Assembly (NCBI GenBank): GCA_040878325.1
Contig: JBBDMM010000010.1
Coordinates: forward strand, 124,001-188,000
Length of the DNA stretch: 64,000 nt
Source of the DNA: Acidimicrobiia bacterium
GTDB lineage: Bacteria > Actinomycetota > Acidimicrobiia > Spongiisociales > UBA11373
Reading direction: 5' to 3'
How positions within the stretch are numbered: the stretch's first letter is position 1; each line of letters starts with the position of its first letter. Positions 4,946 to 19,332 of the stretch are shown piece by piece. Under the pieces are notes generated by a model. That model did not search any database. It saw only the letters and a list, made by a program, of their open reading frames with translations, and was not told the DNA's origin. Both the position numbers and the translations under genes were made by a program.

Positions 4946-5952
4946 GCGACGTGCTTGTCAGGGTCAAGGACCTGGTGAAGGACTTCCCGGTGAAGGGCGG
5001 CATCCTGCGGCGGACGGTGGCCAACGTGCGCGCCGTGGACGGCGTCGACCTCGAAATCCACCGGGGCGAGTCGGTCGGGTTGGTGGGTGAATCGGGATGC
5101 GGCAAGACGACCCTGGGACGGATGCTGGTACGACTGCTCGATCCGACCTCGGGGACGATCGAGTTCGACGGGGTCGACATCGCCAGCCTGGAGGGCGATG
5201 AACTGAAGAAGATGCGCCAACGCATCCAGATCATCTTCCAGGACCCCTACTCCTCGCTCGATCCGCGGGCCCCGGTGGGGGCGAGCATCGCCGAAGGGTT
5301 GAAGATCCATGGCGTCACCGACCCCGATGAGCGCCATCAGCGGGTGATCGGCATGATGCGGCTCGTCGGCCTCGAGCCATATCACGCCCAGCGCTTTCCT
5401 CACGAGTTCTCGGGGGGCCAACGGCAGCGGATCGGGATCGCCCGGGCGCTCATCCTGCGGCCCGACTTCGTCATCGCCGACGAGCCCGTCTCGGCACTCG
5501 ATGTCTCGGTGCAGGCCCAGGTGCTGAACCTGCTCACCGAACTGCAGGGGGAGTTGGAGCTGACCCTGCTGTTCATTGCCCACAACCTGGCCGTGGTCGA
5601 GCACATCAGCGATCGGGTGGCCGTGATGTATCTGGGCGACATCGTCGAGATCACCGATCGGGAGACGCTCTATCGGGCTCCGGCCCACCCTTACACCGAG
5701 GCGCTGCTGTCGGCGATCCCGGTGCCCGATCCGACCCTCCGCCGCAAGCGCATCCTGCTCGAGGGGGACGTCCCCAGCCCTTTGAATCCGCCTGCCGGCT
5801 GCCGTTTCCACCCCCGCTGCCCGATTGCGGTCGACGGTGTCTGCGACGTCGAGGTACCCAGGCTGCTGCCCGTACCCGGCACGGCAGAACACATGGCCTC
5901 ATGCCACCTCCGCACCGGCGCCTACCGACACCTGGACAAGGCCGCGACGTAG
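4942..5952 (+). CDS. dppF: Peptide ABC transporter ATPase (DppF-like)
   Basis: ATG at 4942 overlaps the previous stop; [32 protein letters not shown]. Confidence 0.93.
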
Positions 5953-6003
5953 CCGGCGCCCGGCCGCACACGACCCCAGCGCTCATCAACTGACCGCTTC
6001 TGC

Positions 6004-6043
6004 TGCGAACTGCGAATTGCGAGTTGCGGGCGAGCGCAGCGAG
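6004..6043. repeat. Period-7 array (TGCGAAY) followed by GCGAGCGCAGCGAG
   Basis: tgcgaac tgcgaat tgcgagt tgcgggc; the same 14-mer follows the array at 32533-32574. Confidence 0.7.
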
Positions 6044-6067
6044 ACCAAGCCTTACACTTTGGCCCCC

Positions 6068-7315
6068 ATGCGTGACACTGCCGACGTGGTGATAATCGGT
6101 GCCGGGATCATCGGCCTGTCGATCGCCCATCAGATCAGTCGCCGCGATCCGCGCAAGATCGTGATTCTCGAGAAGGCGGCGAACGTGGCCGAGGGTTCGA
6201 CAGGGGCGTCGTCCGCCATCCTCCGCCAGCGGTACACCCACATCGAGGCCATCACCATCGCCCGTGACGGTCTGCGAGCTCATCGCAGCTGGGGGGCGTA
6301 TACCGGGCTGGAGGAACCCCGGGCCCGCTTCCATCACTCCGGGGTGCTGTGGATGCTGGCCGAGGCCCGCGAGGTGGCGGAGCGCGATCGGGATCGAATG
6401 ATCTCGCTCGGCATCGACGCCGAGGTGCTCGATGCCGAAGCCGTTCGCTCCCGGTTCCCCGCACTTTCGACCTGCAACGCCCCCTTCGATCTCAGCGGCG
6501 AAACCGAACACGTCTGTGTCGACCACGACGCCTTTCTATACGAGGGCGATAGCGGGTTCTTCGACCCGGTGAGCGCCGCCCAGGATCTCCTCGAGGTCGT
6601 GCGCCAGGCCGGGGTCGAGGTGCGGTTCCAGACCGCGGTCACTGGTATCCGCACCGCGGGAGCCCGCATCGAAGGCGTCGACTTGGCCGATGGCTCCTCG
6701 ATCGATGCCCCGGTGGTGGTGAACGCGGCCGGTCCCTGGGCCGCCCGTATCGCCGCGATGGCCGGCCTCGAGTGGAAGTGGACGATCCGCCCCATCCGTG
6801 CCCAGGTGATCTACCGGGAATGGCCGCGCGATCTCGTCCCCGGCCCGATTCCAGTGCTGGGCGACTCGTCGGCGGGGATCTACCTGCGACCCGAGGCCAG
6901 CGGACAGCAGATCCTTGTCGGCTCGATTCTCCACGAGGACGAGCAGGAGGTGGTCGAGGATCCGGACCACTTCAACAACAACGTCGATGCTTCCTTCCGC
7001 GACACCAAGATCCATGCACTTCATCATCGGATTCCGGCTCTGCCGTATCGGGGCCAGATTTCCGGATTGGCGGGGATGTACACCATGAATGTCGAGGATG
7101 TCCATCCCATCGTCGGTCCCACCGCCATCGAGGGGTTCATCGTGGCGAACGGCTTCTCGGGCCACGGGTTCAAGGAGTCTCCGTCAGTGGGATCGATGAT
7201 CGCTCGCTTCCTCACCGGTGCCCCCGCCGACGAATGGGACACCGAGGCGCCGATGGAGTTCCTCTCGATCGACCGCGATCCGATCGCGCTGGCAGATACG
7301 ACGGTGTTGGCGTAG
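6068..7315 (+). CDS. FAD-dependent oxidoreductase (DAO / sarcosine oxidase beta family)
   Basis: VIIGAGIIG, VVNAAGPWA, GFSGHGFK; start placed at ATG 6068. Confidence 0.88.
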   Translation: MRDTADVVIIGAGIIGLSIAHQISRRDPRKIVILEKAANVAEGSTGASSAILRQRYTHIEAITIARDGLRAHRSWGAYTGLEEPRARFHHSGVLWMLAEAREVAERDRDRMISLGIDAEVLDAEAVRSRFPALSTCNAPFDLSGETEHVCVDHDAFLYEGDSGFFDPVSAAQDLLEVVRQAGVEVRFQTAVTGIRTAGARIEGVDLADGSSIDAPVVVNAAGPWAARIAAMAGLEWKWTIRPIRAQVIYREWPRDLVPGPIPVLGDSSAGIYLRPEASGQQILVGSILHEDEQEVVEDPDHFNNNVDASFRDTKIHALHHRIPALPYRGQISGLAGMYTMNVEDVHPIVGPTAIEGFIVANGFSGHGFKESPSVGSMIARFLTGAPADEWDTEAPMEFLSIDRDPIALADTTVLA

Positions 7316-7322
7316 AGACTCC

Positions 7323-7352
7323 AGCCTCCACCTCGGGGAGGATGTGGAGGCT
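7323..7352. terminator. Hairpin between convergent genes
   Basis: AGCCTCCAC...GTGGAGGCT. Confidence 0.5.
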
Positions 7353-7356
7353 TGCC

Positions 7357-7530
7357 TCAGTCGTCAATTGGCTCTACGCCGAGCGCTTTGAGCCGCTCCA
7401 GGTTGTCCTTCATGGCCTGGAGTGTCTCCGCGGGGTGCCCGTGCCAGCCTGTCACCTCCCTCATGACTCGCAGCGGCTCTCGGGAGCGGTATGACTTCGT
7501 CGGATTGCCGGGAAACCGGGGGTTCGTCAG
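7357..7530 (-). pseudogene. arr: 3' fragment of rifampin ADP-ribosyltransferase (Arr)
   Basis: LTNPRFPGNPTKSYRSREPLRVMREVTGWHGH...AMKDNLERLKALGVEPIDD resembles the Arr C-terminus; no Arr N-terminal half upstream. Confidence 0.8.
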
Positions 7531-7598
7531 CCGTGGGCCTGGACGACACGACACCGAAGGCAACGGAGCGAAAGGGTCGGCCCCGGGTATAGGGTTGG

Positions 7599-7982
7599 GT
7601 GGTGCCCGAGATTTACCCCTTCCTGGCAGTACGGGATGTGTCTGCAGCTGTCGAGTTCTACGTTCGCGCGTTCGGTGCCGTGGAGGAGGGCGAGCGCCTC
7701 GTAGCGCCCGACGGACGGCAGGTTGCAGTGCTGCGAGTCGCTGGCCAGCATCTCGGAGTTGCGACTGAAGCTCCAGACCTCGGCACCCCGAGTCCAGAGT
7801 CCCTCGGCGCAACGACGGTCCGCATCTCACTCGAGGTGAACGATCCGGATGAGGTCCAGGAACGCGCCGTGTCTGCGGGTGCCAGCGAGATGTTCGCAAT
7901 GGCCGATCAGCCCTACGGGATGCGACAGGGCCGGCTCATCGATCCCTTCGGTCATCACTGGTTAATCGGCAAACGCCTCTAG
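7599..7982 (+). CDS. VOC/glyoxalase (PhnB-like) protein
   Basis: PFLAVRDVSAAVEFYVRAFGA...DQPYGMRQGRLIDPFGHHW. Confidence 0.88.
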   Translation: MVPEIYPFLAVRDVSAAVEFYVRAFGAVEEGERLVAPDGRQVAVLRVAGQHLGVATEAPDLGTPSPESLGATTVRISLEVNDPDEVQERAVSAGASEMFAMADQPYGMRQGRLIDPFGHHWLIGKRL

Positions 7983-8012
7983 AGGCTCCCCTGATCGAGC
8001 GTGGCGGTGCTT

Positions 8013-8044
8013 CCCTCGCCCAGCCTACGTAAATGTCACCTGAC
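8013..8044 (+). repeat. 32-bp cassette-boundary repeat, copy A
   Basis: CCCTCGCCCAGCCTACGTAAATGTCACCTGAC. Confidence 0.85.
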
Positions 8045-8064
8045 GCTTCAGGGCACAACACAGG

Positions 8065-8095
8065 CCCTCGGCCAGCGTCCGTAAAGTCACCCGAG
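8065..8095 (+). repeat. Cassette-boundary repeat, copy B (1-bp deletion)
   Basis: CCCTCGGCCAGCGTCCGTAAAGTCACCCGAG. Confidence 0.85.
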
Positions 8096-8155
8096 GGGGC
8101 GCTCAGGCTGGTGCGGTCACAAGGAGCCAGGACCCCTCCGGGTGAGGGAAAAAGA

Positions 8156-8187
8156 CCGTCGGCCAGGGTGCGCCAATCACATCCGAG
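8156..8187 (+). repeat. Cassette-boundary repeat, copy C
   Basis: CCGTCGGCCAGGGTGCGCCAATCACATCCGAG; 13 nt from the HEAT gene stop. Confidence 0.8.
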
Positions 8188-8200
8188 GGAACGCGGCACC

Positions 8201-8740
8201 CTACGTCCGTCGTTCGATGTCGCCAATGGCGCGCTCGACGCGTCTGGCCGCCGGTTCACCGCTCGTTCGCAGCACGGCGGCGAGAACTCCGACAGCGGAG
8301 TCATCTCCGACCCGGCCTAGGGCGATCACGGCCGCCTGTCGCACCCGCGGATGCGCGTCCTGCAGCGCCCGCTTCAGCTGGGGTGTGACATCGCCCACAC
8401 CAAGTCGACCCAGGGACATGGTCGCGTTCATCCGCACCCGCCAGTGCTCGTCTGCCATCGCCTCGAGCAGCACCTGCCTCGCTCTCGGATCAGCGAGGTA
8501 GGCCATGGAACGCGCCGCCCATGCCCGCGGCCAGTACGTCAGGCGATCTCCGGTCGGATCATGGAGCAGCCTGTCTGCATGTCCATCACCGATGTCGAGC
8601 AGAACGCGGCGCCATGGATGATGAACAAGAGCGGGACCGGCCACCCGTGAACGAAGCAGCTCGGCCAGCACCCGTAGCGCCCGCTCGCCGCCCAAGCGAC
8701 TTGCGAGAGCCTGCGTCCCGATCCTCGGAGTCCACCCCAT
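8201..8740 (-). CDS. HEAT-repeat (PBS lyase-like) protein
   Basis: DEHWRVRMNATMSLGRLG and DAHPRVRQAAVIALGRVG repeats. Confidence 0.8.
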   Translation of the reverse strand: MGWTPRIGTQALASRLGGERALRVLAELLRSRVAGPALVHHPWRRVLLDIGDGHADRLLHDPTGDRLTYWPRAWAARSMAYLADPRARQVLLEAMADEHWRVRMNATMSLGRLGVGDVTPQLKRALQDAHPRVRQAAVIALGRVGDDSAVGVLAAVLRTSGEPAARRVERAIGDIERRT

Positions 8741-8779
8741 ACGGCCGAGACCCTATCTGACTGGCGGGGGGACCCGGTC

Positions 8780-8811
8780 CCATCGGCCAGGGTGCGTAAG
8801 TGTCATCCGAG
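8780..8811 (+). repeat. Cassette-boundary repeat, copy D
   Basis: CCATCGGCCAGGGTGCGTAAGTGTCATCCGAG; 6 nt from the stop at 8818. Confidence 0.85.
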
Positions 8812-8817
8812 AGGTGC

Positions 8818-9477
8818 TTAGGCGCAGAGTGGCACGACACCTCTCGGCCAGCGTTCCACGCCCTCGCTATCCCGGAGGTACACGGCGTTCGGATCGCTTG
8901 GCGAGAGCCACAGCTCCCTTCCGACCGATCGGAAACCTGTATCGATCGCATCCGGAGGCAGCTCCTGCAGTTCGGCGAAGCCCGCCCTCAGCTCGGGCTG
9001 CCCGTAGGCCTGATCCGGGTCGCGTACGTACTCGCTCCCGTCACCCGACCGCCAGGGGTGGTCCCAGCGTGCCCCCACGGGCTCACCGGTCCGAAGCACT
9101 CGTACCGTCTGCCGTCCGCAGTGAGCGGATCCCGCCCACTCGAGGAGCACGTCGAGCCGGACAAGACAGCCCTGGGCGTCGGTCCATGGGAACTCGCGGA
9201 CTGAATGTGGCTCGCCTTCGAGCGAGACGACATCATCCGGTTCTCCGGTGCACTCGTGTGCGGCGGGAGTGGCGGACCATGGATGATGGGATCTCAATAT
9301 CAGGGTGGTCGATATGGTCGACCCCGGGGACAGACCAGTAATCACCGTTGAGTTGTTGGCCCCTTGGTCGGCCGATGAGGTGACTTCCTGGGGTGTGCAT
9401 GCGCCCAGAAGGAGAATCGCTATAGCGACACGAACGCCGATGTGGCCCCTCCTGTGAACGATCCCAGATTGTCGCAC
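8818..9477 (-). CDS. Hypothetical lipoprotein
   Basis: Signal peptide/lipobox AILLLGAC; start moved to GTG 9477 so that it lies inside the repeat-bounded unit. Confidence 0.6.
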   Translation of the reverse strand: MRQSGIVHRRGHIGVRVAIAILLLGACTPQEVTSSADQGANNSTVITGLSPGSTISTTLILRSHHPWSATPAAHECTGEPDDVVSLEGEPHSVREFPWTDAQGCLVRLDVLLEWAGSAHCGRQTVRVLRTGEPVGARWDHPWRSGDGSEYVRDPDQAYGQPELRAGFAELQELPPDAIDTGFRSVGRELWLSPSDPNAVYLRDSEGVERWPRGVVPLCA

Positions 9478-9528
9478 GCCCCTGCGGACCGAAGACCGCG
9501 CGATCGACTCGCAGATAACGGTGCCCTC

Positions 9529-9560
9529 CCCTCGGCCAGCGTACGTAAATGTCACCCGAG
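9529..9560 (+). repeat. Cassette-boundary repeat, copy E
   Basis: CCCTCGGCCAGCGTACGTAAATGTCACCCGAG. Confidence 0.88.
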
Positions 9561-9641
9561 TATCGCAAGGTCGACTCGGGTCCACCGCAGAGCGCAATCG
9601 AGTCGGACTTGCCTGGAGCGACCCCGTCTTTCGGACAACCT

Positions 9642-10550
9642 TCAGCTGGTGCGCCCGCTGGCTCCTAGCGGTCTCACCACCTCGGCAAAGTACGTTCCGT
9701 CGTACTCGCAGTCAGGGGGTGGGTCGTCAGGCGTGCGATCGCTGGCAGAACCATGGAGCGTGACGTTGTCCCCTGATCTGACCACTGTCTCGGTGAATAG
9801 TGCCTCCCACCGGCTCATGTGGATGGTGTGGTCGTCCAGAAGCGAAACGGTTCCCGCCGGCCAGACGACAAGCAGCTCGCGGTCGGAGCCGGAGAAGGTG
9901 ACCGTGGTGCAAGCCCCGTCGATGGTGATGGTGGGCGTGCCGTCGTGCCCCATGCCGCCAACCCCTTCCACACCCTCGACCGGGCGAGTCGTCAGCCCGT
10001 GTCCAACCGGCGCATCAAGGGCACCGAGAAGGATCAGCTGCTCGTCGTAGGCGCAGCTCGCGGGCATCGGCTCGGCCAGCTCTCCATCGACTGCATCGAA
10101 CGGGATGCCTCGGAATTGGTAGCGGGCGCCAGATGACAAGACCAGAGTCGGGGTAGCCGGGTCGATGTCTTCGAAGTGGACGCCGTCACCCTGCACCCAG
10201 ACGTACCGTTCTCCCCCTGTCGGCGGCCCGGGCGGGAGATTGAAGACCAGAAGAGTCGCCGTGTCCCCCGTTTCGGCGGTCACGCAAGACCCGTCGACGC
10301 GGAGAACAGCGTCCTCGACGACTCGGATCGGGAGAGGGGATACGTCGAGCAATGCGTCATGCGTCGACGAACCGATCCGCGGCGGGTCGAATGCCACCGG
10401 CGTGGAAGTCGTTGACGTCGGTGAAGATGACGTCGTGACCGGCTCAGGCGTTGCTGTTGTGGGAGCGACGGATGGCGTTGGCTTCGCGGCACCCGAACAC
10501 CCCGCAGCGACGAGAACCAGCGCGACAACTGCCAGCATCTGCCGAATCAC
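9642..10550 (-). CDS. Hypothetical lipoprotein with Ser/Thr/Pro linker
   Basis: MLAVVALVLVAAGC lipobox; two related segments (VDGSCVT / IDGACTT); TACCAT just upstream of GTG 10550. Confidence 0.68.
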   Translation of the reverse strand: MIRQMLAVVALVLVAAGCSGAAKPTPSVAPTTATPEPVTTSSSPTSTTSTPVAFDPPRIGSSTHDALLDVSPLPIRVVEDAVLRVDGSCVTAETGDTATLLVFNLPPGPPTGGERYVWVQGDGVHFEDIDPATPTLVLSSGARYQFRGIPFDAVDGELAEPMPASCAYDEQLILLGALDAPVGHGLTTRPVEGVEGVGGMGHDGTPTITIDGACTTVTFSGSDRELLVVWPAGTVSLLDDHTIHMSRWEALFTETVVRSGDNVTLHGSASDRTPDDPPPDCEYDGTYFAEVVRPLGASGRTS

Positions 10551-10608
10551 CGGGAAATGGTAGGCCGAATCGCTTGGTGCGCTTCTTCGTATCGGATGTG
10601 GACCAGAA

Positions 10609-10640
10609 CCCTCGGCCACAGTGCGGAAAGCACACCCGAG
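10609..10640 (+). repeat. Cassette-boundary repeat, copy F
   Basis: CCCTCGGCCACAGTGCGGAAAGCACACCCGAG; 19 nt from the stop at 10660. Confidence 0.8.
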
Positions 10641-10659
10641 CAGTTAACGCAGCCCGCTC

Positions 10660-11451
10660 CTACCCAGACTCGTCTTGGCTGCCGGAGGGCGGCGGCAACC
10701 CGGCGCAGCCTGGTGGACCCATCGAGCCACCAATGATCTGGGAAATCGTGCGGGATCTGGGTTGGCTATCCGCTGCACACGGTCGTCGAGCCTCCACATC
10801 GTCGGAACGAATCTGAACAATCAGTCTCGTCTCGTCGATCAGTATGGTGATCCAACCTTCGCCCTGGTCAAGGACATAGCCGACGACGTGCTCGCCATCG
10901 GCGGTATCAATGCGCTCCGCCGAGAGCCACATGGCGTCCCCAAAGACCACTAGAACGGCCAAGAAGAACAGCATGATGCTGAGCGCAGTGATCGAGGCAG
11001 TCGATCCGCGTCCGGCACGGTCCCGACTCCGCCTCCACCGACCGATTGCAAACCCGGAGAGCCACCCCACCACGAGCCCCACGAGCATCGGGACGGTGGC
11101 CGTGTAGAAGAAGGCGGCTCCATAGAACGGCGCGGGCGCTAGTTCCCAAGCTCGAGCGGGCTGATCCTTAGGTAGAGGTCTTGCCATGTAGCGGACGAAA
11201 GCGAACGCAGCCATGAGGGGTACGGTGAACGTCAGCACGCCCAAGACGACCACGACTGTGTCGCTGTACCCAAGGATGGCCGAGGCCACTCCCGGCTGGA
11301 ACTCAGCGACGGCTAAGACCTTGAGAACCACCACGGCAAAGACGACGGTGGTGCCGACGAGCGCGGGGTGATCACGCACAAGGCGCGTCGCGGTCAATGC
11401 GCTGGAAAGGACGCGTGCGTGTGTGTTATCCGGAGTTGATGTGTGTGTCAC
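10660..11451 (-). CDS. Hypothetical multi-pass membrane protein
   Basis: Several hydrophobic segments and a soluble C-terminus; GAGGGA upstream of GTG 11451. Confidence 0.62.
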   Translation of the reverse strand: MTHTSTPDNTHARVLSSALTATRLVRDHPALVGTTVVFAVVVLKVLAVAEFQPGVASAILGYSDTVVVVLGVLTFTVPLMAAFAFVRYMARPLPKDQPARAWELAPAPFYGAAFFYTATVPMLVGLVVGWLSGFAIGRWRRSRDRAGRGSTASITALSIMLFFLAVLVVFGDAMWLSAERIDTADGEHVVGYVLDQGEGWITILIDETRLIVQIRSDDVEARRPCAADSQPRSRTISQIIGGSMGPPGCAGLPPPSGSQDESG

Positions 11452-11649
11452 GCTTCCCTCTTGACTTGAGTATGCAACGAAACTCGTCACCCCGCTCTGC
11501 GGGCGGTGGCCGGGTTCTTCCTTGCGAGTTACACAGATGTTGTTTCGTAGGGATGTTCGCGTCTACGCTTTGGGGGACCGGCAAGTGATGTCCGCGGTAT
11601 GACGACCGCCTGAGTTAGAGACCGCCGGAGTTTCCACTCTGTTCTCCTC

Positions 11650-12378
11650 GTGGGAGTGCTCATGGCGGCCGGTTGGTTCCTATCTCTGTATCCCGAGGCC
11701 GGTGAGGCTGGGGGTTCGTTCCGTGGTCTGAGCCGCGTTGATTCCTCGTCGGGTGGGGGGTGGGCGGTGGACCCGGCCCGATCGTTGGACGAGGCGGCAC
11801 GGCGGGCACGGAGCAAGGTGCGGCGGTATTGCGCTGCGAATGGGTTGAACCGCTTCGGGACTCTCACCTACGCGGGTGAGGGGGTTCATGACCCTCGGGT
11901 GGTGCGGGCCGATGTGGGTCGGTTCTTCCGTGGTCTGCGTCGGGGTCTTGGTGGTGAGGCGTTCCCGTATCTGTGGGTGCCCGAGTTACATAAGTCGGGC
12001 CACGGGTTCCATCTGCATTTTGCGGTTGGTCGTTATGTCCCTCGGGGTTTGATCGAGCGGGCGTGGGGGCGTGGGTTCGTGTTCATCAAGCTGATCCAGG
12101 GCACACCGTCGGGGGCGGGGGTGCGGGAGGAGGCTCGGGTCGCTGCCCGTTATCTGTCGAAGTATCTCGGTAAGGAGATGGCGGGGGCGGGTGGCCTCAA
12201 CCGGTATGACGGTGCCCAGGGGTTCCAGCCGAAGGCCGAACCGATCACCGGCCGCACCGAATCGGTGGTCGTTGAGGCGGCGTCGGAGCGGATGGGAAGC
12301 CAACCGGCCTATGTGTGGCGGTCGGTCAATCAGGAGGGCTGGAAGGGTCCCCCGGCGGTGTGGCTGCAATGGCGATAA
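11650..12378 (+). CDS. rep: Rolling-circle replication initiator (HUH endonuclease, Y2-type)
   Basis: Motif 1 FGTLTY, motif 2 PELHKSGHGFHLHF, motif 3 YLSKY. Confidence 0.85.
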   Translation: MGVLMAAGWFLSLYPEAGEAGGSFRGLSRVDSSSGGGWAVDPARSLDEAARRARSKVRRYCAANGLNRFGTLTYAGEGVHDPRVVRADVGRFFRGLRRGLGGEAFPYLWVPELHKSGHGFHLHFAVGRYVPRGLIERAWGRGFVFIKLIQGTPSGAGVREEARVAARYLSKYLGKEMAGAGGLNRYDGAQGFQPKAEPITGRTESVVVEAASERMGSQPAYVWRSVNQEGWKGPPAVWLQWR

Positions 12379-12539
12379 AGCCACTGTCGCCCGAGGTTGT
12401 CGCCGGCTGGGTGGATTCCTCGACGGCCGCCCAGGGCGTGCCGGCCAAGGTGACAGACCCAAATGCGGTCGAGGCGGTGTCAGCGCTGTTGGGCGAAGGC
12501 CGCGAACCGGTCGAGGTCAAAGACGCCACACCGGCGTGA
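12369..12539 (+). CDS. Small (56 aa) hypothetical protein overlapping the end of rep
   Basis: ATG 12369 within the rep 3' end; MAIKPLSPEVVAGWVDSSTAAQGVPAKVTDP; also overlaps the recombinase 3' end. Confidence 0.5.
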   Translation: MAIKPLSPEVVAGWVDSSTAAQGVPAKVTDPNAVEAVSALLGEGREPVEVKDATPA

Positions 12540-13923
12540 ACCGATCGGGATCGAAGGTGTTGCGTCCCTGCCGGGCAGGCTTCACCACGAGGTGATCGAG
12601 GACGGTTCGGACAATGGCGTGCTGTCTGGTGAGCGGCAGATCGGCCCAGGCTTCTTGGAGCAGGCTGGATCTTCCGGCGTATTGGGCGATGTCGTGAGTG
12701 GGTGAGATCCGAGAAAGGCGACGCCTCGCAGCATCTATCCGGCTCTGGATTGGTTGGCGGGCGGCGAGCCATTCTCGGTGGCTGATTGCCTTGTCGGCGT
12801 AATCGGTGGCGAGCCGGTCCAACATCGCCTCGTCGGCGGCGACCTGATCCACCAGGTCAGCCTGTTGGGTGCTCGCTCGACTGACGGCGGCCAAAGCAGC
12901 GGCCAACTCTGGAGTGTCGAGACGGTAGAGGACGGCTTGGGCAACCAAACTCTCGACGGGTTCTGACACGGCTGCCATCCGGCCGCAGCCACCAAAGCCA
13001 GGACCCGAAGCACAGACATAGCGGCGCTGGCCACCCGAACGGGGCCGGGAATACATCACCGTCCCACAAAGGCCGCATCTGAGGAGGCCGGTGAGCAGGT
13101 AACGGCGGGGGGACCGGCCCGTAGGGCCGGACCCCGCCGCCCGGCTCAACCGGACCCGCAGACGGTCCGACTGGGCCGGGGTGATGATCCCGGGCCATTC
13201 GGCTTTGGCGGTGATCTCACCCCGATGCTCCCTGCGTCCCGAGATGCGGGCCGAGCGCAGCATCCGATTCAAGGTGTTCGGAGTCCACTCCCCACCCTTG
13301 CTCGTCTTCACCCCTCGCCCGTTGAGGTCCGAGCAGATTGACCGGGCCGACTCCCCAGCCAGCGTCCGTTTCACTGCCTCTTTGATGATGGGGGCTTCTT
13401 CGGGGACGACATGGAGCCGGTCCTTGGTGTACCCGTAGGGGCGGGCACCGCCACCCGACACCTTCCCTTTCGTAGCCAGCTCGAGATGCTTGCGGCGCAG
13501 CCGGTCGGCAGCCTTATCTGATTCGGAACGGGCGATCACGCTGCCCAGTCTGGCAACCATCCGACCCTGCGGCGTCGCCAAATCAACATCACCCGCCCGC
13601 ACCGTCCGAATATCCGACAGCCCGGCGTTCTCGCACAGGTCGATGAAGTCCTCCAACTCCCTCGGACTGCGATGCAACCGGTCGGGATGCCACACCACCA
13701 GGGCGTCGACCGTCCCTGCCTTGATGTCGTCACACAGCCGTTCGTATTCGGGGCGACGCCTCCCCGAGTAAGCCGACACATCGTTGTCCACAAAGACATC
13801 GCCCACCGGCCACCCCAGCGAAGCGGCGAGGCCCTCGCAGTCGTCGATCTGACGGTCCACACCCAGATGAGTCCCATCAGGGTCAGAAGAGATACGGGCG
13901 TAGATCGCAGCAGCCTGAGGCAT
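12517..13923 (-). CDS. Large serine recombinase (integrase)
   Basis: YARIS catalytic Ser, DRLHR, PYGY recombinase domain, zinc ribbon LLRCGLCG...YVC...C, coiled coil. Confidence 0.93.
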   Translation of the reverse strand: MPQAAAIYARISSDPDGTHLGVDRQIDDCEGLAASLGWPVGDVFVDNDVSAYSGRRRPEYERLCDDIKAGTVDALVVWHPDRLHRSPRELEDFIDLCENAGLSDIRTVRAGDVDLATPQGRMVARLGSVIARSESDKAADRLRRKHLELATKGKVSGGGARPYGYTKDRLHVVPEEAPIIKEAVKRTLAGESARSICSDLNGRGVKTSKGGEWTPNTLNRMLRSARISGRREHRGEITAKAEWPGIITPAQSDRLRVRLSRAAGSGPTGRSPRRYLLTGLLRCGLCGTVMYSRPRSGGQRRYVCASGPGFGGCGRMAAVSEPVESLVAQAVLYRLDTPELAAALAAVSRASTQQADLVDQVAADEAMLDRLATDYADKAISHREWLAARQPIQSRIDAARRRLSRISPTHDIAQYAGRSSLLQEAWADLPLTRQHAIVRTVLDHLVVKPARQGRNTFDPDRFTPVWRL

Positions 13924-13945
13924 CAGGGCACATTAACGCACCGTC

Positions 13946-13972
13946 CCCTCGGCGACAGCGCTCACATCTGAG
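13946..13972 (+). repeat. Degenerate (shortened) cassette-boundary repeat, copy G
   Basis: CCCTCGGCGACAGCGCTCACATCTGAG; both arms recognisable, centre 5 bp short. Confidence 0.5.
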
Positions 13973-13981
13973 GGTGGGGAC

Positions 13982-15907
13982 CTACTCGATTCCCAGGTAC
14001 CTCAGAAACGCGGTTTGGTTGGGCTCGCGGCCGAGGAAGTCGCGCAGCATGTCCATTGGGTCCTTGGAGCCCCCCGGGCCGATGACCCTTTCCCGGTAGT
14101 CCTTGCCGACCTGAGGCGACAGCACCCCTTCGGCCTCGAAGCGGCTGAACATGTCGTCGCCGAAGACCTTCGACCACAGGTATCCGTAGTACCCGGCGTC
14201 GTATCCGAAGAGGTGCCCGAACCCGGCGGGGAAGAAGGTGCCCTCGTGGAACGGGAACAAGCCGATCTCGGTCGTCTCCCTGGTGATGGTGTGGAGGTCC
14301 TTCTTCGCTCCCGGCCCGTGGAAGGCGAGATCGAGCTTCCCGAACGACACCTGGCGAAGCATCGCCAGGGAGATGTGGAGGTTGCGAGCCTCCACCAACT
14401 GGTCGACCAGTTCGTCGGGGATCGGCTCCCCGGTCTTGTGGTGCCGGGCGAACCTGCGCAGCACGTCGGCGTTCCAGCACCAATGTTCCATGATCTGCGA
14501 CGGCGCCTCGACGAAGTCCCACTCGGTGTTGTAACCGGCGAACCGAATGTGCTTTGCCCGACCAAGGCTGTTGTGGAGGACGTGACCGAATTCGTGAAAG
14601 AGCGTCACCACCTCGTCATGGCGGAGCAGTGAAGGGGCGTCGGCTGACGGCTTGGTGAAATTGGCCACGATCGCGGTCACCGGCGTTTGCTCGCCATGAC
14701 CCGAGATCAGGTCGAAGGCCGCCGCGTGCCCGAACTTGCCTTCCCGCGGGAACAGGTCCATATAGAAGGTCGCCAACAGTTCGCCGGTGGCCGAGTCGAG
14801 GATGTCGTAGGCCACCACGTCCTTGTGCCACGCGTGGATCGACTGGTGCTGGCGGTACTTCAGCCCGAAAACCTCGCCCGTGATCGCAAACATCCCGTCG
14901 AGCACCTGTTGCAGAGGAAAATAGGCGGCCACCTCATTGGGGTCCACCCCGAACCGCTCCTTGCGAATCTTGGTGTGCAGGTATCGGTGATCCCATCCCT
15001 CGGGCCGTTCGCCGTTCTGGGCGGTGGCGAGGTCGTCGATCTCGCTGCGTCCCTTGGCGGTGAGCGCGGGCACGATGCCGGCGTACATCTCCTCGACCAC
15101 CTTGGGGTCCTTCGCCATCTTCTCTTCCATGCCGTAGTGGGCCCACGACGGCAGCCCGAAGATCTCGGCGATCCGGTGGCGGAGGCGGACCGCTTCCTCG
15201 AGGAGCGGGAGGTTGTCGGCGGCGGCCTTGTTGTAGAACTTGAACTGGATCTGACGCCGCAGGTCGCGGTCCTCGGCCTGGTCCATGAACGGGTAGTAGT
15301 CGGGGTAGTCGAGCGAAACCCGGGACGTACCCTCGGTCGCGCCGGGGGCGAGCCGCCCGACGTAGTCGTCGGGAAGCCCGGCCAGCTGCTCCCGCGTCAG
15401 GTCGAGCCCGTCCTCGAACTCGTCGATGTTGCGGGTAAAGGCCACGTCCAGCTCCACCAGCCGGGTGCGCATCTTCTGCACCTCGCCGCGCTCTTCCTCA
15501 CTCAGCCCATGACCGGCGCGACGGAAGTCGCGCTGGGTGAAGTCGAGCAACCGGCGGTCCTCCCCTTCGAGGGCGACGGCCTCGTCGGTGGTGGCATACG
15601 CCTCGACCGCCTCGTACAGGTCGCGGCGAAAGGCCAGGTCGGACTGCCACTTCGACAGCCTCTCCTCGGCTGCCTGGGCGGCGTCGCGGACTTCCTTGTC
15701 GGGGTGGACCCGGGCCATGAAGGGGCCGACGCCGTAGGCGCGCACCAGGGCGTCGCCGAGCATGTCGAGGGGGGCCATCGCGTCGGCCCAGGTGCGGGGA
15801 CCGGAGTGATCGACGATCGAGGAGATCAGCCCATCGCCCGTGGCGATCGCATCCTCGACGGCCTTGGTGACGGATTCGGCAGTGACCTTGGTGTAGTCAT
15901 AAAGCAT
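13982..15907 (-). CDS. M3 family metallopeptidase (thimet oligopeptidase-like)
   Basis: TLFHEFGHVLH, DFVEAPSQ, YDAGYYGYLW. Confidence 0.92.
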   Translation of the reverse strand: MLYDYTKVTAESVTKAVEDAIATGDGLISSIVDHSGPRTWADAMAPLDMLGDALVRAYGVGPFMARVHPDKEVRDAAQAAEERLSKWQSDLAFRRDLYEAVEAYATTDEAVALEGEDRRLLDFTQRDFRRAGHGLSEEERGEVQKMRTRLVELDVAFTRNIDEFEDGLDLTREQLAGLPDDYVGRLAPGATEGTSRVSLDYPDYYPFMDQAEDRDLRRQIQFKFYNKAAADNLPLLEEAVRLRHRIAEIFGLPSWAHYGMEEKMAKDPKVVEEMYAGIVPALTAKGRSEIDDLATAQNGERPEGWDHRYLHTKIRKERFGVDPNEVAAYFPLQQVLDGMFAITGEVFGLKYRQHQSIHAWHKDVVAYDILDSATGELLATFYMDLFPREGKFGHAAAFDLISGHGEQTPVTAIVANFTKPSADAPSLLRHDEVVTLFHEFGHVLHNSLGRAKHIRFAGYNTEWDFVEAPSQIMEHWCWNADVLRRFARHHKTGEPIPDELVDQLVEARNLHISLAMLRQVSFGKLDLAFHGPGAKKDLHTITRETTEIGLFPFHEGTFFPAGFGHLFGYDAGYYGYLWSKVFGDDMFSRFEAEGVLSPQVGKDYRERVIGPGGSKDPMDMLRDFLGREPNQTAFLRYLGIE

Positions 15908-16008
15908 TGGAGCGAGGTTAGTTCAGAGTCGCCAGTCACCGATCGCCAGGAAGGCCGTGCGTCATCCGGTTCTTGAAGAAGTGGGTGGGGTGCTCGCAGG
16001 GTCCGCTG

Positions 16009-16070
16009 CCCCCTCCGTCACCGCCGAGGACGGCGGTGCCACCTCCCCCGCCGAAGACGGCGGAGGAGGA
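16009..16070. repeat. Double-hairpin REP-like element
   Basis: CACCGCCG agga CGGCGGTG and CCGCCG aaga CGGCGG within CCCCCTCCGTCA...GGAGGA. Confidence 0.55.
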
Positions 16071-16080
16071 CGCCGGAGCC

Positions 16081-17712
16081 TCAGCCGTCTTCTATCCCAT
16101 ACAGGGCACCGTCGCGCGAGAACAGGTAGATCATCCCCTTCCACACCACGGGGGTGGCCTCGAGGGTGGAGGCGCCGACCCGGAACTCCCAGCGGAGCTC
16201 GGGCTGGCGGGGGTTGGTGACGTCGAAGTTGTAGAGGAGGCCCTCGTATCCCGCGACCAGCAGGTTGTTGCCGATGAGGATCGGCGACGAGAGTGCGGTG
16301 GAGACGCCGACGCGGGCCGAGGGGCCGATGTGATGGAACCACAGCTCCGCACCCGTGTCCCGGTCGACGGCGACCACGTTCCCCTTGTTGGTGAGGACAT
16401 AGACCACCCCATCGCCGAGCACCGGGGTGCCCCAGACACCGCCGTATGCCGGGGGATCGGTGATCGATTCCATCCCCCAGATCCGCGGGTCGCCATCGGT
16501 GTACGGGTCGAGCTTTACCAACTGGCCGACCTCGCGGCCGCGATTGTTGAACCGCTTCCACTCCACCGGGACGTAGAGCATGCCTTCCTCGTCGATGACG
16601 ATCGACCCGTCCACGTCGTCGCCGACCCAGTAGTCGAAGACGATCGGGGCGTTGCCGTTCTCGACGTCGGTGATGTCGAGGCCGATGACCCGCCCGGCGG
16701 AGGTGCCGAAGTAGATGCGGCCTTCGAACATGGCGGTGGTGCTCTCGACACTCGTCGATGTGCACCGGGCCGCGTTGACCGCGCTGCACCCGGCCTGAAT
16801 CTGGGTGAGGAGGGCATCGTCCCAGGTCTTCATCTTGAACAGCAGTTCGGGGGCGACCGTCACCAGCCCTTCGGCGTCATACCGGCGATTCAGCTTCCAG
16901 ATGTAGTAGATCGAGTTCTCGCCGCCTTCGAACATGATGTCGTTGACGATCAGCGGTGCCGAGTCCCAGTGGGTGTTCCATCGTCCCTCGACCGAGAACG
17001 ACGGGGTAGCGAACGCCCATAGGGTGACGGGATCCCCCCGGTCGAATGCGGCAATGCGGAGATTGCCGTCGGTGCTGCCGAAGTAGACGAGTGGGAACCC
17101 GTCGGGATCGAGCGTGGGGCTGCCCTTTACGATGCTGTCGGTGGCCAGCGGCGTACGCGTGGGCTCACCGGTGACCGCGTTGACGAAGTGAAGCCGGCCG
17201 TCGTAGGCGCCGGAGATCAACTCGGTCACCCCGTCGGGACTCTCCCAGATCGCCGGTTGTCCGGTCCACCCATTGCCGCACCAGGTGGACGAGACGCCGA
17301 AGTCGGTCAGTTGACCGCACAGACCCCCGCTCGCCGGATAACGCCATGCGGTGGCGGGGGACGCCGGCACCGGCCCCTCGCCGTGGTAGGTGTGGGTGGG
17401 GTTGCCCCGGTGGGTCAGCAGGCCGACCACCTGGTCACCCCACGGCTGGCCCACCGTCCGTCGATCGACCCAAGGGTGGAGTGGGGCCCCGGTCGTGGTG
17501 GTCGTATCGGGCAGCGATGTGGTGGTCGAACCGACCGTCGTGCTGGTGCCACTCGAGCCAGTGGTGGTCGACGAACTGGTACCAGCCGGCACCGTCGATA
17601 CCGCCGACTCGGTGCGGTCGGTCGCCAGCCACAGAAAGGCGGTGACGCTGGCCGACGCGAGCAGGACCCCGAGCCCGATCGCGACCAGCGCTGGAGGTGT
17701 CGACCGGCGCAT
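16081..17712 (-). CDS. Membrane-anchored PQQ-like beta-propeller protein (paralog 1)
   Basis: N-terminal TM, Thr-rich linker, repeated W...S/TP propeller motifs. Confidence 0.8.
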   Translation of the reverse strand: MRRSTPPALVAIGLGVLLASASVTAFLWLATDRTESAVSTVPAGTSSSTTTGSSGTSTTVGSTTTSLPDTTTTTGAPLHPWVDRRTVGQPWGDQVVGLLTHRGNPTHTYHGEGPVPASPATAWRYPASGGLCGQLTDFGVSSTWCGNGWTGQPAIWESPDGVTELISGAYDGRLHFVNAVTGEPTRTPLATDSIVKGSPTLDPDGFPLVYFGSTDGNLRIAAFDRGDPVTLWAFATPSFSVEGRWNTHWDSAPLIVNDIMFEGGENSIYYIWKLNRRYDAEGLVTVAPELLFKMKTWDDALLTQIQAGCSAVNAARCTSTSVESTTAMFEGRIYFGTSAGRVIGLDITDVENGNAPIVFDYWVGDDVDGSIVIDEEGMLYVPVEWKRFNNRGREVGQLVKLDPYTDGDPRIWGMESITDPPAYGGVWGTPVLGDGVVYVLTNKGNVVAVDRDTGAELWFHHIGPSARVGVSTALSSPILIGNNLLVAGYEGLLYNFDVTNPRQPELRWEFRVGASTLEATPVVWKGMIYLFSRDGALYGIEDG

Positions 17713-19332
17713 CTAGGTGTTCTTGTCTCCGACGGCGTACATGAAACCGTCGCGGCTGCCGACGTAGATCATCCCTTTCCACACCGCCGGGGTCGACTCG
17801 AGGTGGCTGCCGATCACGAGGGACCAGTCGAGCACCGGCGAGCGGGGGTCGGTGATGTTGAACTTGCGGAGGAGGCCGTCCTGGGCGGCAACTATCAGAT
17901 CGTTTCCGACCACCACCGGCGAGGACCAGGAACCGGGAGCCAGCTGAAGCGCGGCGATTTCCTCCCCGGTCGCCTGATCGACGACCACCAGGAAGCCCTT
18001 GTTGGTCACCGCATAGAGGACACCGTCGCCCAGTGCCGGTGTGGACCAGAGCCCGCCCTTGGCCGGGGCGGTCGTGAGCGAGAACATGCCCCAGACCCAG
18101 GGGTCCCCGGCTGTGTACGGGTCGAGCTTGATGAGCTGACCGACGTCCTGGGCCTGCTGCAGGTAGCGCTCGTACTCCGCCGACACGTAGAGGAATCCCT
18201 CTTCGTCTATGACGATCGAAGCGTCGACGTCGTCGCCGACCCAGTAGTCGAACACGACCGGCGCCTCGCCGTTCTCGATGTTGGTGATGTCGAGCCCGAT
18301 CACCCGGCCGGCCGAGTTCGCAAAGTAGGCGCGGCCCTCGAAAATGGCGGTGGTGTTCTCGACGCTTATCGCCGGATACGAGAGTCCGATCTTCTCCAGC
18401 AGCGCGTCGTCATAGGTCGACATCTTGAACAGGAGGGTCGGCTGGATCGTCACCAGGCCGAGATTGTCGTACGCCCGGTTCAGCTTCCAGATGTAGTACC
18501 AGCCGTTCTCGGCGCCCTCGAACAAGATGTCGTTGACGATGCGGGGGCTGGCATCCCAGTCGTCGTTCCATTGGCCCTCGACCGCGACCGTGTCCGACGG
18601 CTCCGGGCAGCTTGGCTTGGGAAGGCAGATCTCGAATGCCCACAATTCGACCGGTTCTCCGCGGTCGAGGGCGAGGGCGCGGAGTTTGTTGTCGCGGCTA
18701 CCGAAGTAGACGATCGGGTATCCGTCGGGGTCGATGGTGGGCGTTCCCTTGATCAAATCGCCGGTCTGAAAGGCGTCGCGGGTCTTCCTGCCCGTCTTGG
18801 CGTCGACGAAGTGGAGCTTCCCGTCGTATGCCCCGAAGATCATCTCGGTGACGCCGTCCTCACGCTCCCAGATGACCGGTTGGCCGGTCCACCCATTGCC
18901 GCACCAGGTGGTCGTCTGGCCGAGGTCGGTGGATTGGCTGCACATCGGGTTGTCGGGGTATTTCCAGGTCTTTTCCGGGTTGGATGGCACCGGCCCCTGG
19001 CCGTAGTAGGTGTTGGTGGGGTTGCCGCGGAAGGTAAGCAGCCCTTCGACGGCGGTTCCCCAGGGTTCCCCGACGGTGCTCCGGTCCACCCAGGCATGGG
19101 ATTGCGTGAACGCGGTCGTCGAGGTGGTCGCCCCCAGAGTGGTCGAGGAGGGCTCTGACGTGGCGGTGCCGCCGTTGGTGTCGGTGGTCGTGACGAGCGT
19201 TCCCAGGTCCGGAAGCGTGCCGGGGGCCGCCGTCGATTCTTCTGGTGCGAACATCGAGAACAGCGCGATGCTGGTCGCGGCGAGCAGGATGGCGAGCCCG
19301 GCTCCCACCTGGAGCGGGCGGATCGGTGACAT
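17713..19332 (-). CDS. Membrane-anchored PQQ-like beta-propeller protein (paralog 2)
   Basis: Shares WCGNGWTGQP and FDYWVGDDVD with the adjacent gene. Confidence 0.8.
   Translation of the reverse strand: MSPIRPLQVGAGLAILLAATSIALFSMFAPEESTAAPGTLPDLGTLVTTTDTNGGTATSEPSSTTLGATTSTTAFTQSHAWVDRSTVGEPWGTAVEGLLTFRGNPTNTYYGQGPVPSNPEKTWKYPDNPMCSQSTDLGQTTTWCGNGWTGQPVIWEREDGVTEMIFGAYDGKLHFVDAKTGRKTRDAFQTGDLIKGTPTIDPDGYPIVYFGSRDNKLRALALDRGEPVELWAFEICLPKPSCPEPSDTVAVEGQWNDDWDASPRIVNDILFEGAENGWYYIWKLNRAYDNLGLVTIQPTLLFKMSTYDDALLEKIGLSYPAISVENTTAIFEGRAYFANSAGRVIGLDITNIENGEAPVVFDYWVGDDVDASIVIDEEGFLYVSAEYERYLQQAQDVGQLIKLDPYTAGDPWVWGMFSLTTAPAKGGLWSTPALGDGVLYAVTNKGFLVVVDQATGEEIAALQLAPGSWSSPVVVGNDLIVAAQDGLLRKFNITDPRSPVLDWSLVIGSHLESTPAVWKGMIYVGSRDGFMYAVGDKNT

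What the first reader, a model, noticed from the sequence alone, without database searches (positions are those of the whole stretch)
7357..13972. Integron-like gene-cassette array punctuated by a direct ~32-bp repeat, next to a serine recombinase and HUH Rep
Seen: six same-orientation copies of one motif at 8013, 8065, 8156, 8780, 9529 and 10609, plus degenerate copies at ~7531 and 13946. The 28-bp core is about TCGGCCAG(C/G)GT-(A/G)CGTAA-ATGTCA(C/T)CCGA, with inverted TCGG/CCGA ends. Copies fall only between genes, each interval holds one unrelated gene (VOC, HEAT, two lipoproteins, a membrane protein), and three copies lie 6-19 nt past a stop codon. I saw no full copy elsewhere in the window. 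Known: one gene plus one site is integron cassette logic, arr is a classic cassette gene, and 11-6-11 is the geometry of Xer/dif-type sites. There is no IntI and no attC hairpin here; the only nearby enzymes are a large serine recombinase and a rolling-circle HUH protein. Inference: a possibly undescribed gene-capture and shuffling platform, driven by these enzymes or by a host tyrosine recombinase in trans.
Basis: partly seen in the sequence, partly recalled or inferred. Interest (0 to 1): 0.92.

Follow-up and report, generated by a model that had tools for sequence, protein, structure and literature searches.

The report
Serine-integrase gene-cassette arrays in soil bacteria
The repeats are docking scars of the neighbouring DNA-splicing enzyme (a large serine integrase) that separate small one-gene modules; the same layout appears in many uncultured soil and sediment bacteria, so it looks like a second way, besides integrons, for bacteria to stack up and swap single genes.

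Summary
The repeat is real, but it is not a Xer-like 11-6-11 site. It is a crossover dinucleotide (TC) plus one 26-bp attP-type arm of the adjacent large serine recombinase (LSR), with a weak 21-bp attB-type arm on its left; each copy is an attL. The 'degenerate copy' at 13946 is the single attR and overlaps the LSR start. The genome has five such arrays. Among 139 related LSR loci (Actinomycetota, Chloroflexota, Dormibacterota), 213 of 249 array sites share their own attR's dinucleotide (TC, TG or CA). Near-identical elements at different loci break at that dinucleotide, whole cassettes recur between genera, and 9 of 15 LSR-free arrays end in an empty attB-like site. A conserved 56-aa ORF is predicted to bind the LSR (0.75 against 0.12), a candidate excision factor. 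Best model: an LSR-RDF-Rep core picks up, delivers and leaves one-gene cassettes by ordinary attP x attB and attL x attR reactions. No circle or attP junction was seen, and how cassettes are first made is open. Closest known: SCC composite islands and CIME accretion. Ten literature searches found no description. This scan earlier noted LSR cassette arrays on other DNA (CPR, SAR86, Omnitrophota); no note matched this Rep-linked family.

The parts
6068..7315 (+). FAD-dependent oxidoreductase (DAO family), host gene, left flank
   Evidence: Pfam PF01266; orthologues in relatives
7357..7464 (-). 3' fragment (35 aa) of an Arr-like gene; not an intact arr cassette
   Evidence: Pfam Arr-ms positions 68-99 of 99; translation
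7527..7530 (+). probable deletion remnant of a site in front of the VOC cassette
   Evidence: sequence; one contig of run X2 joins an intact arm to position 7529 (a weak hint)
7599..7982 (+). cassette gene, glyoxalase/VOC family
   Evidence: Pfam PF00903; an X2 contig covers 7572-8040
7995..8043 (+). attL-like site 1: B arm 7995-8015, TC 8016-8017, P' arm 8018-8043
8016..8067 (+). 52-bp gene-less mini-cassette; its right end resembles the LSR start plus a shortened P arm
   Evidence: five near-identical copies in G000 and G001
8047..8094 (+). attL-like site 2 (TC 8068-8069; P' arm 1 nt short)
8138..8186 (+). attL-like site 3 (TC 8159-8160)
8201..8740 (-). cassette gene, HEAT-repeat protein
   Evidence: Pfam PF13646; an X2 contig matches 8184-8811 only, with 259 other letters before it
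8762..8810 (+). attL-like site 4 (TC 8783-8784)
8818..9477 (-). cassette gene, predicted lipoprotein (lipobox-like by eye, start uncertain)
   Evidence: no Pfam family
9511..9559 (+). attL-like site 5 (TC 9532-9533)
   Evidence: G001 has an identical P' arm and the same downstream cassette behind a different left arm
9642..10550 (-). cassette gene, predicted lipoprotein; paralogues at C12 and C7 without strong sites
10591..10639 (+). attL-like site 6 (TC 10612-10613), left end of the current LSR-Rep unit
10660..11451 (-). cargo gene of the current unit, membrane protein
11460..11485 (+). conserved dso-like motif upstream of Rep (begins CTTGA); DNA to its left is unrelated between elements
   Evidence: core found in 14 of 63 Rep-upstream regions; the nick-site reading is recalled, not tested
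11650..12378 (+). HUH rolling-circle Rep (ORF2/G2P type; motifs GTLTY, HLHF, YLSKY)
   Evidence: Pfam PF23343, phrog_3419, motifs; present in 74 of 99 related loci
12369..12539 (+). conserved 56-aa two-helix protein, candidate recombination directionality factor (RDF)
   Evidence: motif in 75 of 134 loci, alignment A2, fold, complex prediction 0.75 against best control 0.12
12517..13923 (-). large serine recombinase, 468 aa, catalytic serine motif and zinc-ribbon cysteines intact
   Evidence: Pfam Resolvase + Recombinase + Zn_ribbon_recom; invariant columns
13923..13971 (+). attR-like site: inverted P arm 13923-13948 (holds a -10-like TAATGT 6 nt before the LSR ATG, inferred), TC 13949-13950, B' arm 13951-13971
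13982..15907 (-). M3 peptidase, host gene, right flank
   Evidence: Pfam PF01432

Best explanation
The repeats are attL hybrid sites (weak B arm, TC, conserved P' arm) of the adjacent LSR; the site over the LSR start is the one attR (P arm, TC, strong B' arm). The mobile core is dso-Rep-RDF-LSR-P. Inferred cycle, using only canonical chemistry. (1) LSR plus RDF recombine attR with any attL of the array, releasing a circle with attP, the core and all cassettes to the right of that attL, and leaving an attB whose strong B' half is retained. (2) Rep probably copies the circle. (3) LSR integrates the circle at a B.B' site, often the end of another array, which appends its cassettes. (4) A later excision at an inner attL leaves cassettes behind. 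The result is rows of P'-gene-B units at many chromosomal spots, with or without the core. Shown by sequence comparison: the site anatomy, the LSR link, breakpoints at the dinucleotide, shared cassettes and terminal B.B' sites. Predicted only: RDF binding. Inferred: the reactions, the circles, Rep's role and the promoter. Open: how a new gene first gets between P' and the core.
For: In 113 sites from 17 genomes, picked by the right arm, the distal submotif (arm positions 16-26) recurs on the left arm at position 11, z=17 against shuffles; z=6.1 in 81 independent sites. This is the 5-bp attP/attB shift of LSRs (PMC3783163). P.centre.B' lies at the LSR start in 139 of 148 homologous loci. Array sites: 249 on the LSR-downstream side on one strand, against 15, 1 and 0 for the other side/strand combinations. 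The centre equals the own attR centre in 213 of 249 sites (shuffled mean 101, max 152 of 2000), across about 4 centre changes on the LSR tree. The same element sits at two targets with breakpoints at the centre: L123/L124 and L230/L234 at both ends, L269/L275 at the left end. The same target holds different content: L120/L129 are identical up to TC and differ from +1. Whole cassettes are shared: G005/G008 83%, G001/G029 95%, L246/L277 94%. The G001 orthologue of the C6 array lacks Rep-LSR and ends in B.TC.B'. 9 of 15 LSR-free arrays have a B.B' score of 12 or more to the right, 0 of 18 arrays to the left, background 0.005 per kb. 1 of 283 intervals holds a Rep/LSR remnant; median interval 680 bp. 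Small ORF-LSR complex: score 0.75, best control 0.12 (mark reached by 116 of 157 solved and 2 of 215 mismatched pairs; runs agree in at least 68% of contacts; partner pLDDT at least 72), at the zinc-ribbon/coiled-coil base where RDFs bind.
Against: No attP junction or free circle was found: 0 in viral contigs; 0 of 81 and 0 of 113 sites had a P-type left arm; only assembled contigs could be laid, with no such joint among the rows shown (27 not shown). Cassette-end B arms carry only 3-5 bits, against 15-18 for B'. 6 of 15 LSR-free arrays lack a clear terminal attB. No empty attB is recognisable at the orthologous DAO-M3 locus of G002, G003 or G008. L269/L275 share an identical 21-bp B' arm, which independent integration does not readily explain. 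15 sites in 7 loci lie right of attR. Rep was not found in 25 of 99 loci. The centre match rests on few independent changes. The profile was refined on left-side hits, and B' took part in placing the attR centre. The complex score may come from likeness to solved LSR-RDF complexes.
Confidence: 0.75

Rival explanations
1. Passive accretion, no shuttle. Each cassette is the left end of a once-complete element. A new element integrated at a weak pseudo-attB inside the resident one, and the duplicated cores collapsed by homologous recombination or non-cognate excision. The sites are LSR scars but cassettes are rarely re-mobilised.
For: B arms are weak; every core carries about one gene between attL and the dso; accretion of this kind is known for ICE/IME/CIME tandems (PMC5704250). 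This may well be how cassettes are born.
Against: Whole P'-gene-B units recur with the same ends and new neighbours on both sides; core remnants occur in only 1 of 283 intervals; inner P' arms stay at 27-30 bits.
Confidence: 0.15
2. The HUH Rep moves or captures genes (IS91/ISCR-like rolling-circle transposition) and the LSR sites are secondary.
For: There is a sharp conservation boundary at the CTTG-containing dso-like motif; the identical B' in L269/L275 might have travelled with the core; RC transposases can carry adjacent DNA (PMC5714925).
Against: The repeat does not resemble the dso motif and has LSR geometry; Rep-less elements also move at the sites (L230/L234, 1741 bp). Rep may still account for capture of new cargo.
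Confidence: 0.05
3. Host XerC/D acts on pdif-like sites, or an integron integrase acts in trans.
For: XerC-like and XerD-like genes exist in the genome; the cargo resembles integron cassettes.
Against: The site is centre plus one arm, not 11-6-11; its centre follows the LSR subfamily; all sites are in direct orientation; both tyrosine recombinases score far below the integron-integrase cut-off (110 and 117 against 265).
Confidence: 0.02
4. Transcription-factor operator, REP or terminator repeat.
For: The motif is intergenic and family-wide (30 of 36 family genomes).
Against: It is confined to five clusters, mostly at gene 3' ends, tied to the LSR side and strand, and marks exchange breakpoints; no Rfam match.
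Confidence: 0.02

Closest known systems
Staphylococcal SCC/SCCmec composite islands (CcrAB/CcrC)
   Same: An LSR mobilises tandem att-bounded cassettes, including ones without their own recombinase (PMC11470126, passages).
   Different: SCC cassettes there are 17-48 kb at one gene (rlmH) and excise singly or in any combination. Here units are about 0.7 kb with one gene, sit at many unrelated targets (126 distinct right flanks among 137 attR loci, 1 next to a tRNA), show phage-type P/B asymmetry, and come with a HUH Rep and an RDF candidate.
Site-specific accretion of ICE/IME/CIME elements; Dehalococcoides ssrA islands (DsiB)
   Same: Tandem att-bounded units, some without an integrase, mobilised in cis (PMC5704250; PMC3146451; passages).
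   Different: Those are multi-gene islands at one tRNA/ssrA/gene end, usually decayed elements. Here core remnants are nearly absent (1 of 283), units are gene-sized, and no conserved host gene supplies the site.
Integrons and CALINs (IntI, attI, attC)
   Same: One small gene plus one site per unit, stop codon often near the site, similar cargo (GNAT, cupin, VOC, MFS, Arr, APH-family, toxin-antitoxin), arrays with and without the enzyme, a fixed receiving site (B' plays the part of attI).
   Different: Serine instead of tyrosine enzyme; double-stranded att arms, not attC hairpins; the enzyme is on a mobile core; single cassettes probably cannot circularise alone; mixed gene orientation (134 against 80).
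Phage-type large serine integrases and multi-targeting LSRs
   Same: Domain set, 2-bp crossover, 5-bp shift of the distal motif, RDF control (PMC3783163, PMC11722253); many targets per enzyme (PMC10083194).
   Different: Nearest phage integrases are about 33% identical; the described multi-targeting clade mostly carries DUF4368, which was not found here; the passages read mention no cassette arrays.

Membership tests
Large serine recombinase att system | Resolvase + recombinase + zinc-ribbon domains with catalytic serine | tested here: met
Large serine recombinase att system | P and B half-sites with the distal motif shifted 5 bp | tested here: met
   criterion from PMC3783163
Large serine recombinase att system | Crossover at a shared central dinucleotide | tested here: met
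   (comparative, not biochemical)
Large serine recombinase att system | Excised circle with attP | tested here: inconclusive
   none found; no raw reads were available
Large serine recombinase att system | Cognate RDF | tested here: inconclusive
   conserved small ORF, predicted binding 0.75 against 0.12; function not shown
Large serine recombinase att system | Recombination activity | not testable with these tools
   needs an assay
Integron / CALIN | IntI tyrosine recombinase | tested here: not met
   only XerC-like and XerD-like genes found in a 98.9% complete genome
Integron / CALIN | attC hairpin with R/L boxes | tested here: not met
   no consistent hairpin over the sites; asymmetric arms; IntegronFinder itself was not run
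Integron / CALIN | One gene per site, direct orientation | tested here: met
   median 680 bp; 20 of 283 intervals under 150 bp
Xer/pdif modules | 11-6-11 site with XerC and XerD arms | tested here: not met
   a recalled dif core gave no hit, so the host dif was not compared
SCC-type composite island | Fixed single target gene and Ccr-type recombinases | tested here: not met
   126 distinct flanks of 137; Ccr kinship was not tested on a tree
SCC-type composite island | Tandem att-bounded units lacking their own recombinase | tested here: met
IME (integrative mobilizable element) | Relaxase/oriT used for conjugative transfer | not testable with these tools
   Rep is of replication type by Pfam/PHROG; transfer route unknown
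IS91/ISCR rolling-circle transposon | HUH enzyme defines both element ends | tested here: not met
   element ends fall at LSR sites

The most novel reading that the evidence does not exclude
A dedicated serine-integrase counterpart of the integron: a small replicating core (LSR, RDF, HUH Rep) that builds, stocks and redistributes single-gene cassette arrays at many chromosomal docks, with a strong retained B' half acting like attI and the Rep perhaps capturing new genes at its nick site. It would be widespread in uncultured Acidimicrobiia, Thermoleophilia, Chloroflexota and Dormibacterota and invisible to integron finders.
Probability: 0.5. Interest if true: 0.92.

Novelty: new variant of a known kind. 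Interest (0 to 1): 0.82.

Why it matters
It would show that integron-style gene stacking also evolved on a serine integrase, in abundant soil and sediment lineages, with cargo that includes resistance-like, detoxifying and defence-like genes that attC-based surveys miss. It supplies matched LSR, attP/attB arms, three crossover dinucleotides and a candidate RDF, so the mechanism can be tested directly in E. coli or in vitro, and the enzymes may serve as reversible multi-target integrases. The sharp dso boundary offers a testable handle on the long-open question of how gene cassettes are first made.

Tried and rejected
Xer/dif, IntI, REP/operator and Rep-as-recombinase readings: see rivals. Rfam search of 5000-18000: no match. 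attP junction: none in viral contigs, none among 81 and 113 sites. Reads: only assembled contigs were offered; X1 is probably the source sample and is not independent; the small-share runs were laid but not used for habitat claims. Plasmid search with the core: no match. Viral-contig LSR hits are 30-40% identical and show no profile sites. Empty attB at the DAO-M3 locus in G002, G003 and G008: not recognisable, intergenic DNA too diverged; likewise at the orthologues of the C6 and C16 arrays in G002/G003; the C18 comparison with G001 did not give clean breakpoints. Small ORF: no Pfam or PHROG family, Atlas scores 0.81 or lower, no fold match in PDB or BFVD. A recalled dif core found no site. 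The test that P' travels with the cassette to its right had only 6 and 18 pairs (P' identity 0.89 against 0.78): consistent but weak. Look-ups of earlier findings by place, by LSR sequence and by words gave no note on this family; the genome-wide look-up failed. The supplementary LSR/att tables of PMC10083194 were not read and could list members of this clade.
Full report
Observation. The motif is not unique to the window. The genome G000 (2.2 Mb, 98.9% complete) has five clusters: C10 (the window), C6:236-242 kb, C6:48-49 kb, C16:28-31 kb and C18:64-67 kb, co-oriented within each. A profile trained only on other genomes gives 25 strong hits, all in these clusters and all preceded by TC, although TC was not in the model. 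The pattern occurs in 30 of 36 family genomes and 0 of 24 from other families of the order that were searched. Two clusters end in the same Rep-LSR module. The nearest named LSR records are uncultured Acidimicrobiia/Actinomycetota. Two window intervals are gene-less, and arr is a 35-aa fragment.

Anatomy of the site. Directly at the LSR start codon lies an inverted copy of the motif (26 bp), then TC, then a 21-bp arm with the same inner and distal submotifs 5 bp closer together. The array repeat is TC plus the 26-bp arm. In 113 non-redundant sites from 17 genomes, chosen by the right arm, conservation stops after position 26-27 on the right and 20-21 on the left. The distal submotif peaks on the left arm at position 11 instead of 16 (z=17 against shuffled arms). 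In 81 sites from the 80 listed loci of an independent pattern scan the peak is again at 11 (z=6.1). Rutherford et al. describe this 5-bp shift between attP and attB half-sites (PMC3783163, abstract and passages). So array sites are attL-type (B.P') and the site at 13923-13971 is attR-type (P.B'). The P arm holds a -10-like hexamer 6 nt before the LSR ATG that the window's P' arms lack (inference from sequence).

The family. An alignment of 11 close LSRs retrieved 80 metagenome, 80 genome and 15 viral loci (the first two lists are the best 80 of 388 and 310). Of 148 non-redundant loci at 44% identity or more with upstream sequence, 139 have a P.centre.B' site at the LSR start. Hosts include Acidimicrobiia, Thermoleophilia, Chloroflexota and Dormibacterota. 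P'-type sites number 249 on the LSR-downstream side on one strand, against 15, 1 and 0 for the other combinations, in 471 kb and 656 kb. 43 of 46 loci with at least 7 kb on that side have a site, and 26 have three or more. The profile was refined on that side, but the family-only profile shows the same arrays (output partly cut). The centre of array sites equals that of the locus's own attR in 213 of 249 cases (label shuffles: mean 101, max 152); TC, TG and CA subfamilies exist. On a quick tree of 59 LSRs the centre changes about 4 times and the array majority agrees in 53 rows, so this rests on a handful of independent events. Rep is in place in 74 of 99 loci. The 137 attR loci have 126 different right flanks, one beside a tRNA.

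Movement at the sites. L123/L124 (99.8%, 3929 bp) and L230/L234 (99.4%, 1741 bp) are one element at two targets, identical inside and diverging within 2-6 nt outside the centre at both ends. L269/L275 do so on the left but share the whole B' arm. L120/L129 are one target with different content: identical up to TC, different from +1, and identical again after the attR centre. L121, L128 and L131 share a B' flank with different LSRs. Whole cassettes recur with new neighbours: G005/G008 (83%), G001/G029 (95%) and L246 (twice)/L277 (89-94%). The G001 orthologue of the C6 array has other cassettes and no Rep-LSR, and it rejoins G000 at the centre with the same B', preceded by a B-type arm. Such B.B' ends (score 12 or more; 0.005 per kb in the genome) lie within 3 kb right of 9 of 15 LSR-free arrays, including G000 C16, and left of 0 of 18 arrays. 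Contigs from other runs cover single window cassettes and stop at the sites (for example 8184-8811), a weak hint.

Cassettes. 283 intervals have a median of 680 bp and one holds a Rep remnant. Of 250 intervals of 300 bp or more, 134 have the best ORF pointing towards their P' arm (71 stop within 30 nt of it), 80 point away and 36 have none. Of 100 ORFs drawn at random from 154, 56 hit Pfam (GNAT 6, cupin 5, alpha/beta hydrolase 4, MFS 2, and one each of full-length Arr, APH family, putAbiC and Gp49-like, among others) and 44 do not.

Candidate RDF. A 50-60-aa ORF between Rep and LSR is conserved (motif in 75 of 134 loci), folds as two helices and has no family or fold match. Folded with LSR residues 255-468 it scores 0.75 against 0.12 for the best of three controls. 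The mark was reached by 116 of 157 solved and 2 of 215 mismatched pairs; runs agree in at least 68% of contacts; partner pLDDT is at least 72. The interface is at the zinc-ribbon domain and coiled-coil base, where the SPbeta RDF binds (PMC11722253, passages). This may reflect likeness to solved complexes and shows no function.

Mechanism. Many attL sites with one attR follow from ordinary LSR chemistry: attR x attL(k) excision removes the core plus the cassettes right of k and leaves B(k).B', and attP x attB integration appends them elsewhere. Because B' carries 15-18 bits and cassette-end B arms only 3-5, any cassette end restores a usable dock. Parallel attL x attL is disfavoured, so cassettes should ride with the core rather than circularise alone. 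These reactions are inferred; no circle or attP was seen. New cassettes could arise by nested insertion or by excision at weak internal sites; the degenerate P' arms of L230/L234 and L269/L275 fit this. The sharp boundary at the dso-like motif hints that Rep joins new cargo to the core; the likeness of that motif to phiX174/IS91-type nick sites is recalled, not tested.

Comparison and novelty. It works like an integron but fails membership (no IntI, no attC). It is closest to LSR-driven tandem islands (SCC, PMC11470126; Dehalococcoides ssrA islands, PMC3146451) and CIME accretion (PMC5704250), all seen as passages. It differs in gene-sized units, many targets, near absence of core remnants and the Rep-RDF-LSR core. 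Ten full-text searches listed no paper on such arrays; the library lacks most subscription journals, and the supplements of PMC10083194 (passages read) were not checked. Earlier notes of this scan report LSR cassette arrays at tRNA or glmS sites in CPR, SAR86 and Omnitrophota. They are unchecked AI notes, came after my reading was set, and gave me the SCC and DsiB leads; none matched this family by sequence or words. Verdict: a real and widespread new variant of LSR accretion that converges on integron logic; interest 0.82.

Noticed in passing
L069 (G001:C54), L102-L108; G003, G008: A second repeat type (about 26 bp, core TCCTGACAGGGGT) separates genes in G001 (13 matches), G008 (5) and G003 (2), none in G000 or G002. 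On the other strand it also begins after CCC-TC, so it may be the arm of another LSR; a different LSR lies about 5 kb from two copies in G001:C85.
   Followed up: partly
window 8016-8067; G000 C6:235960 and 240975; L043, L044: A 52-bp gene-less unit whose right part matches the LSR start and a shortened P arm: possibly a core deleted between P' and P, whose P arm has become B-like.
   Followed up: partly
window 7315-7357 against G001:C1 and G002:C60: An 11-kb cluster (xanthine-dehydrogenase/carbamoyltransferase/selenate-reductase-like by eye, not scanned) lies after the DAO gene in G001 and G002 but has no blastn match in G000. G001 has a P'-type site right after that cluster.
   Followed up: partly
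G000 C12:235.8-238.2 kb: Three Arr 3' tails interleaved with two paralogues of the window's second lipoprotein, next to a longer Arr-like ORF, without strong P' sites.
   Followed up: partly
G000 C6:244620-244670: The second LSR copy (96% identical N-terminal half) is interrupted by a long poly-C run, probably an assembly artefact.
   Followed up: partly
window 14354-14440: ARAGORN calls a tRNA-Arg inside the M3 peptidase gene; probably false.
   Followed up: no
G034 (several contigs): One family genome has 13 matches to this LSR, in at least two subfamilies with different arms.
   Followed up: no
L230 and L234: A 1741-bp Rep-less minimal element with a degenerate 25-bp P' arm at two loci of one genome.
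   Followed up: yes
L237: Arrays on both sides of the attR (7 sites left, 7 right), a possible insertion into the middle of an array.
   Followed up: partly
window 6004-6046: A short intergenic repeat with many copies in G001 and other relatives, unrelated to the finding.
   Followed up: no
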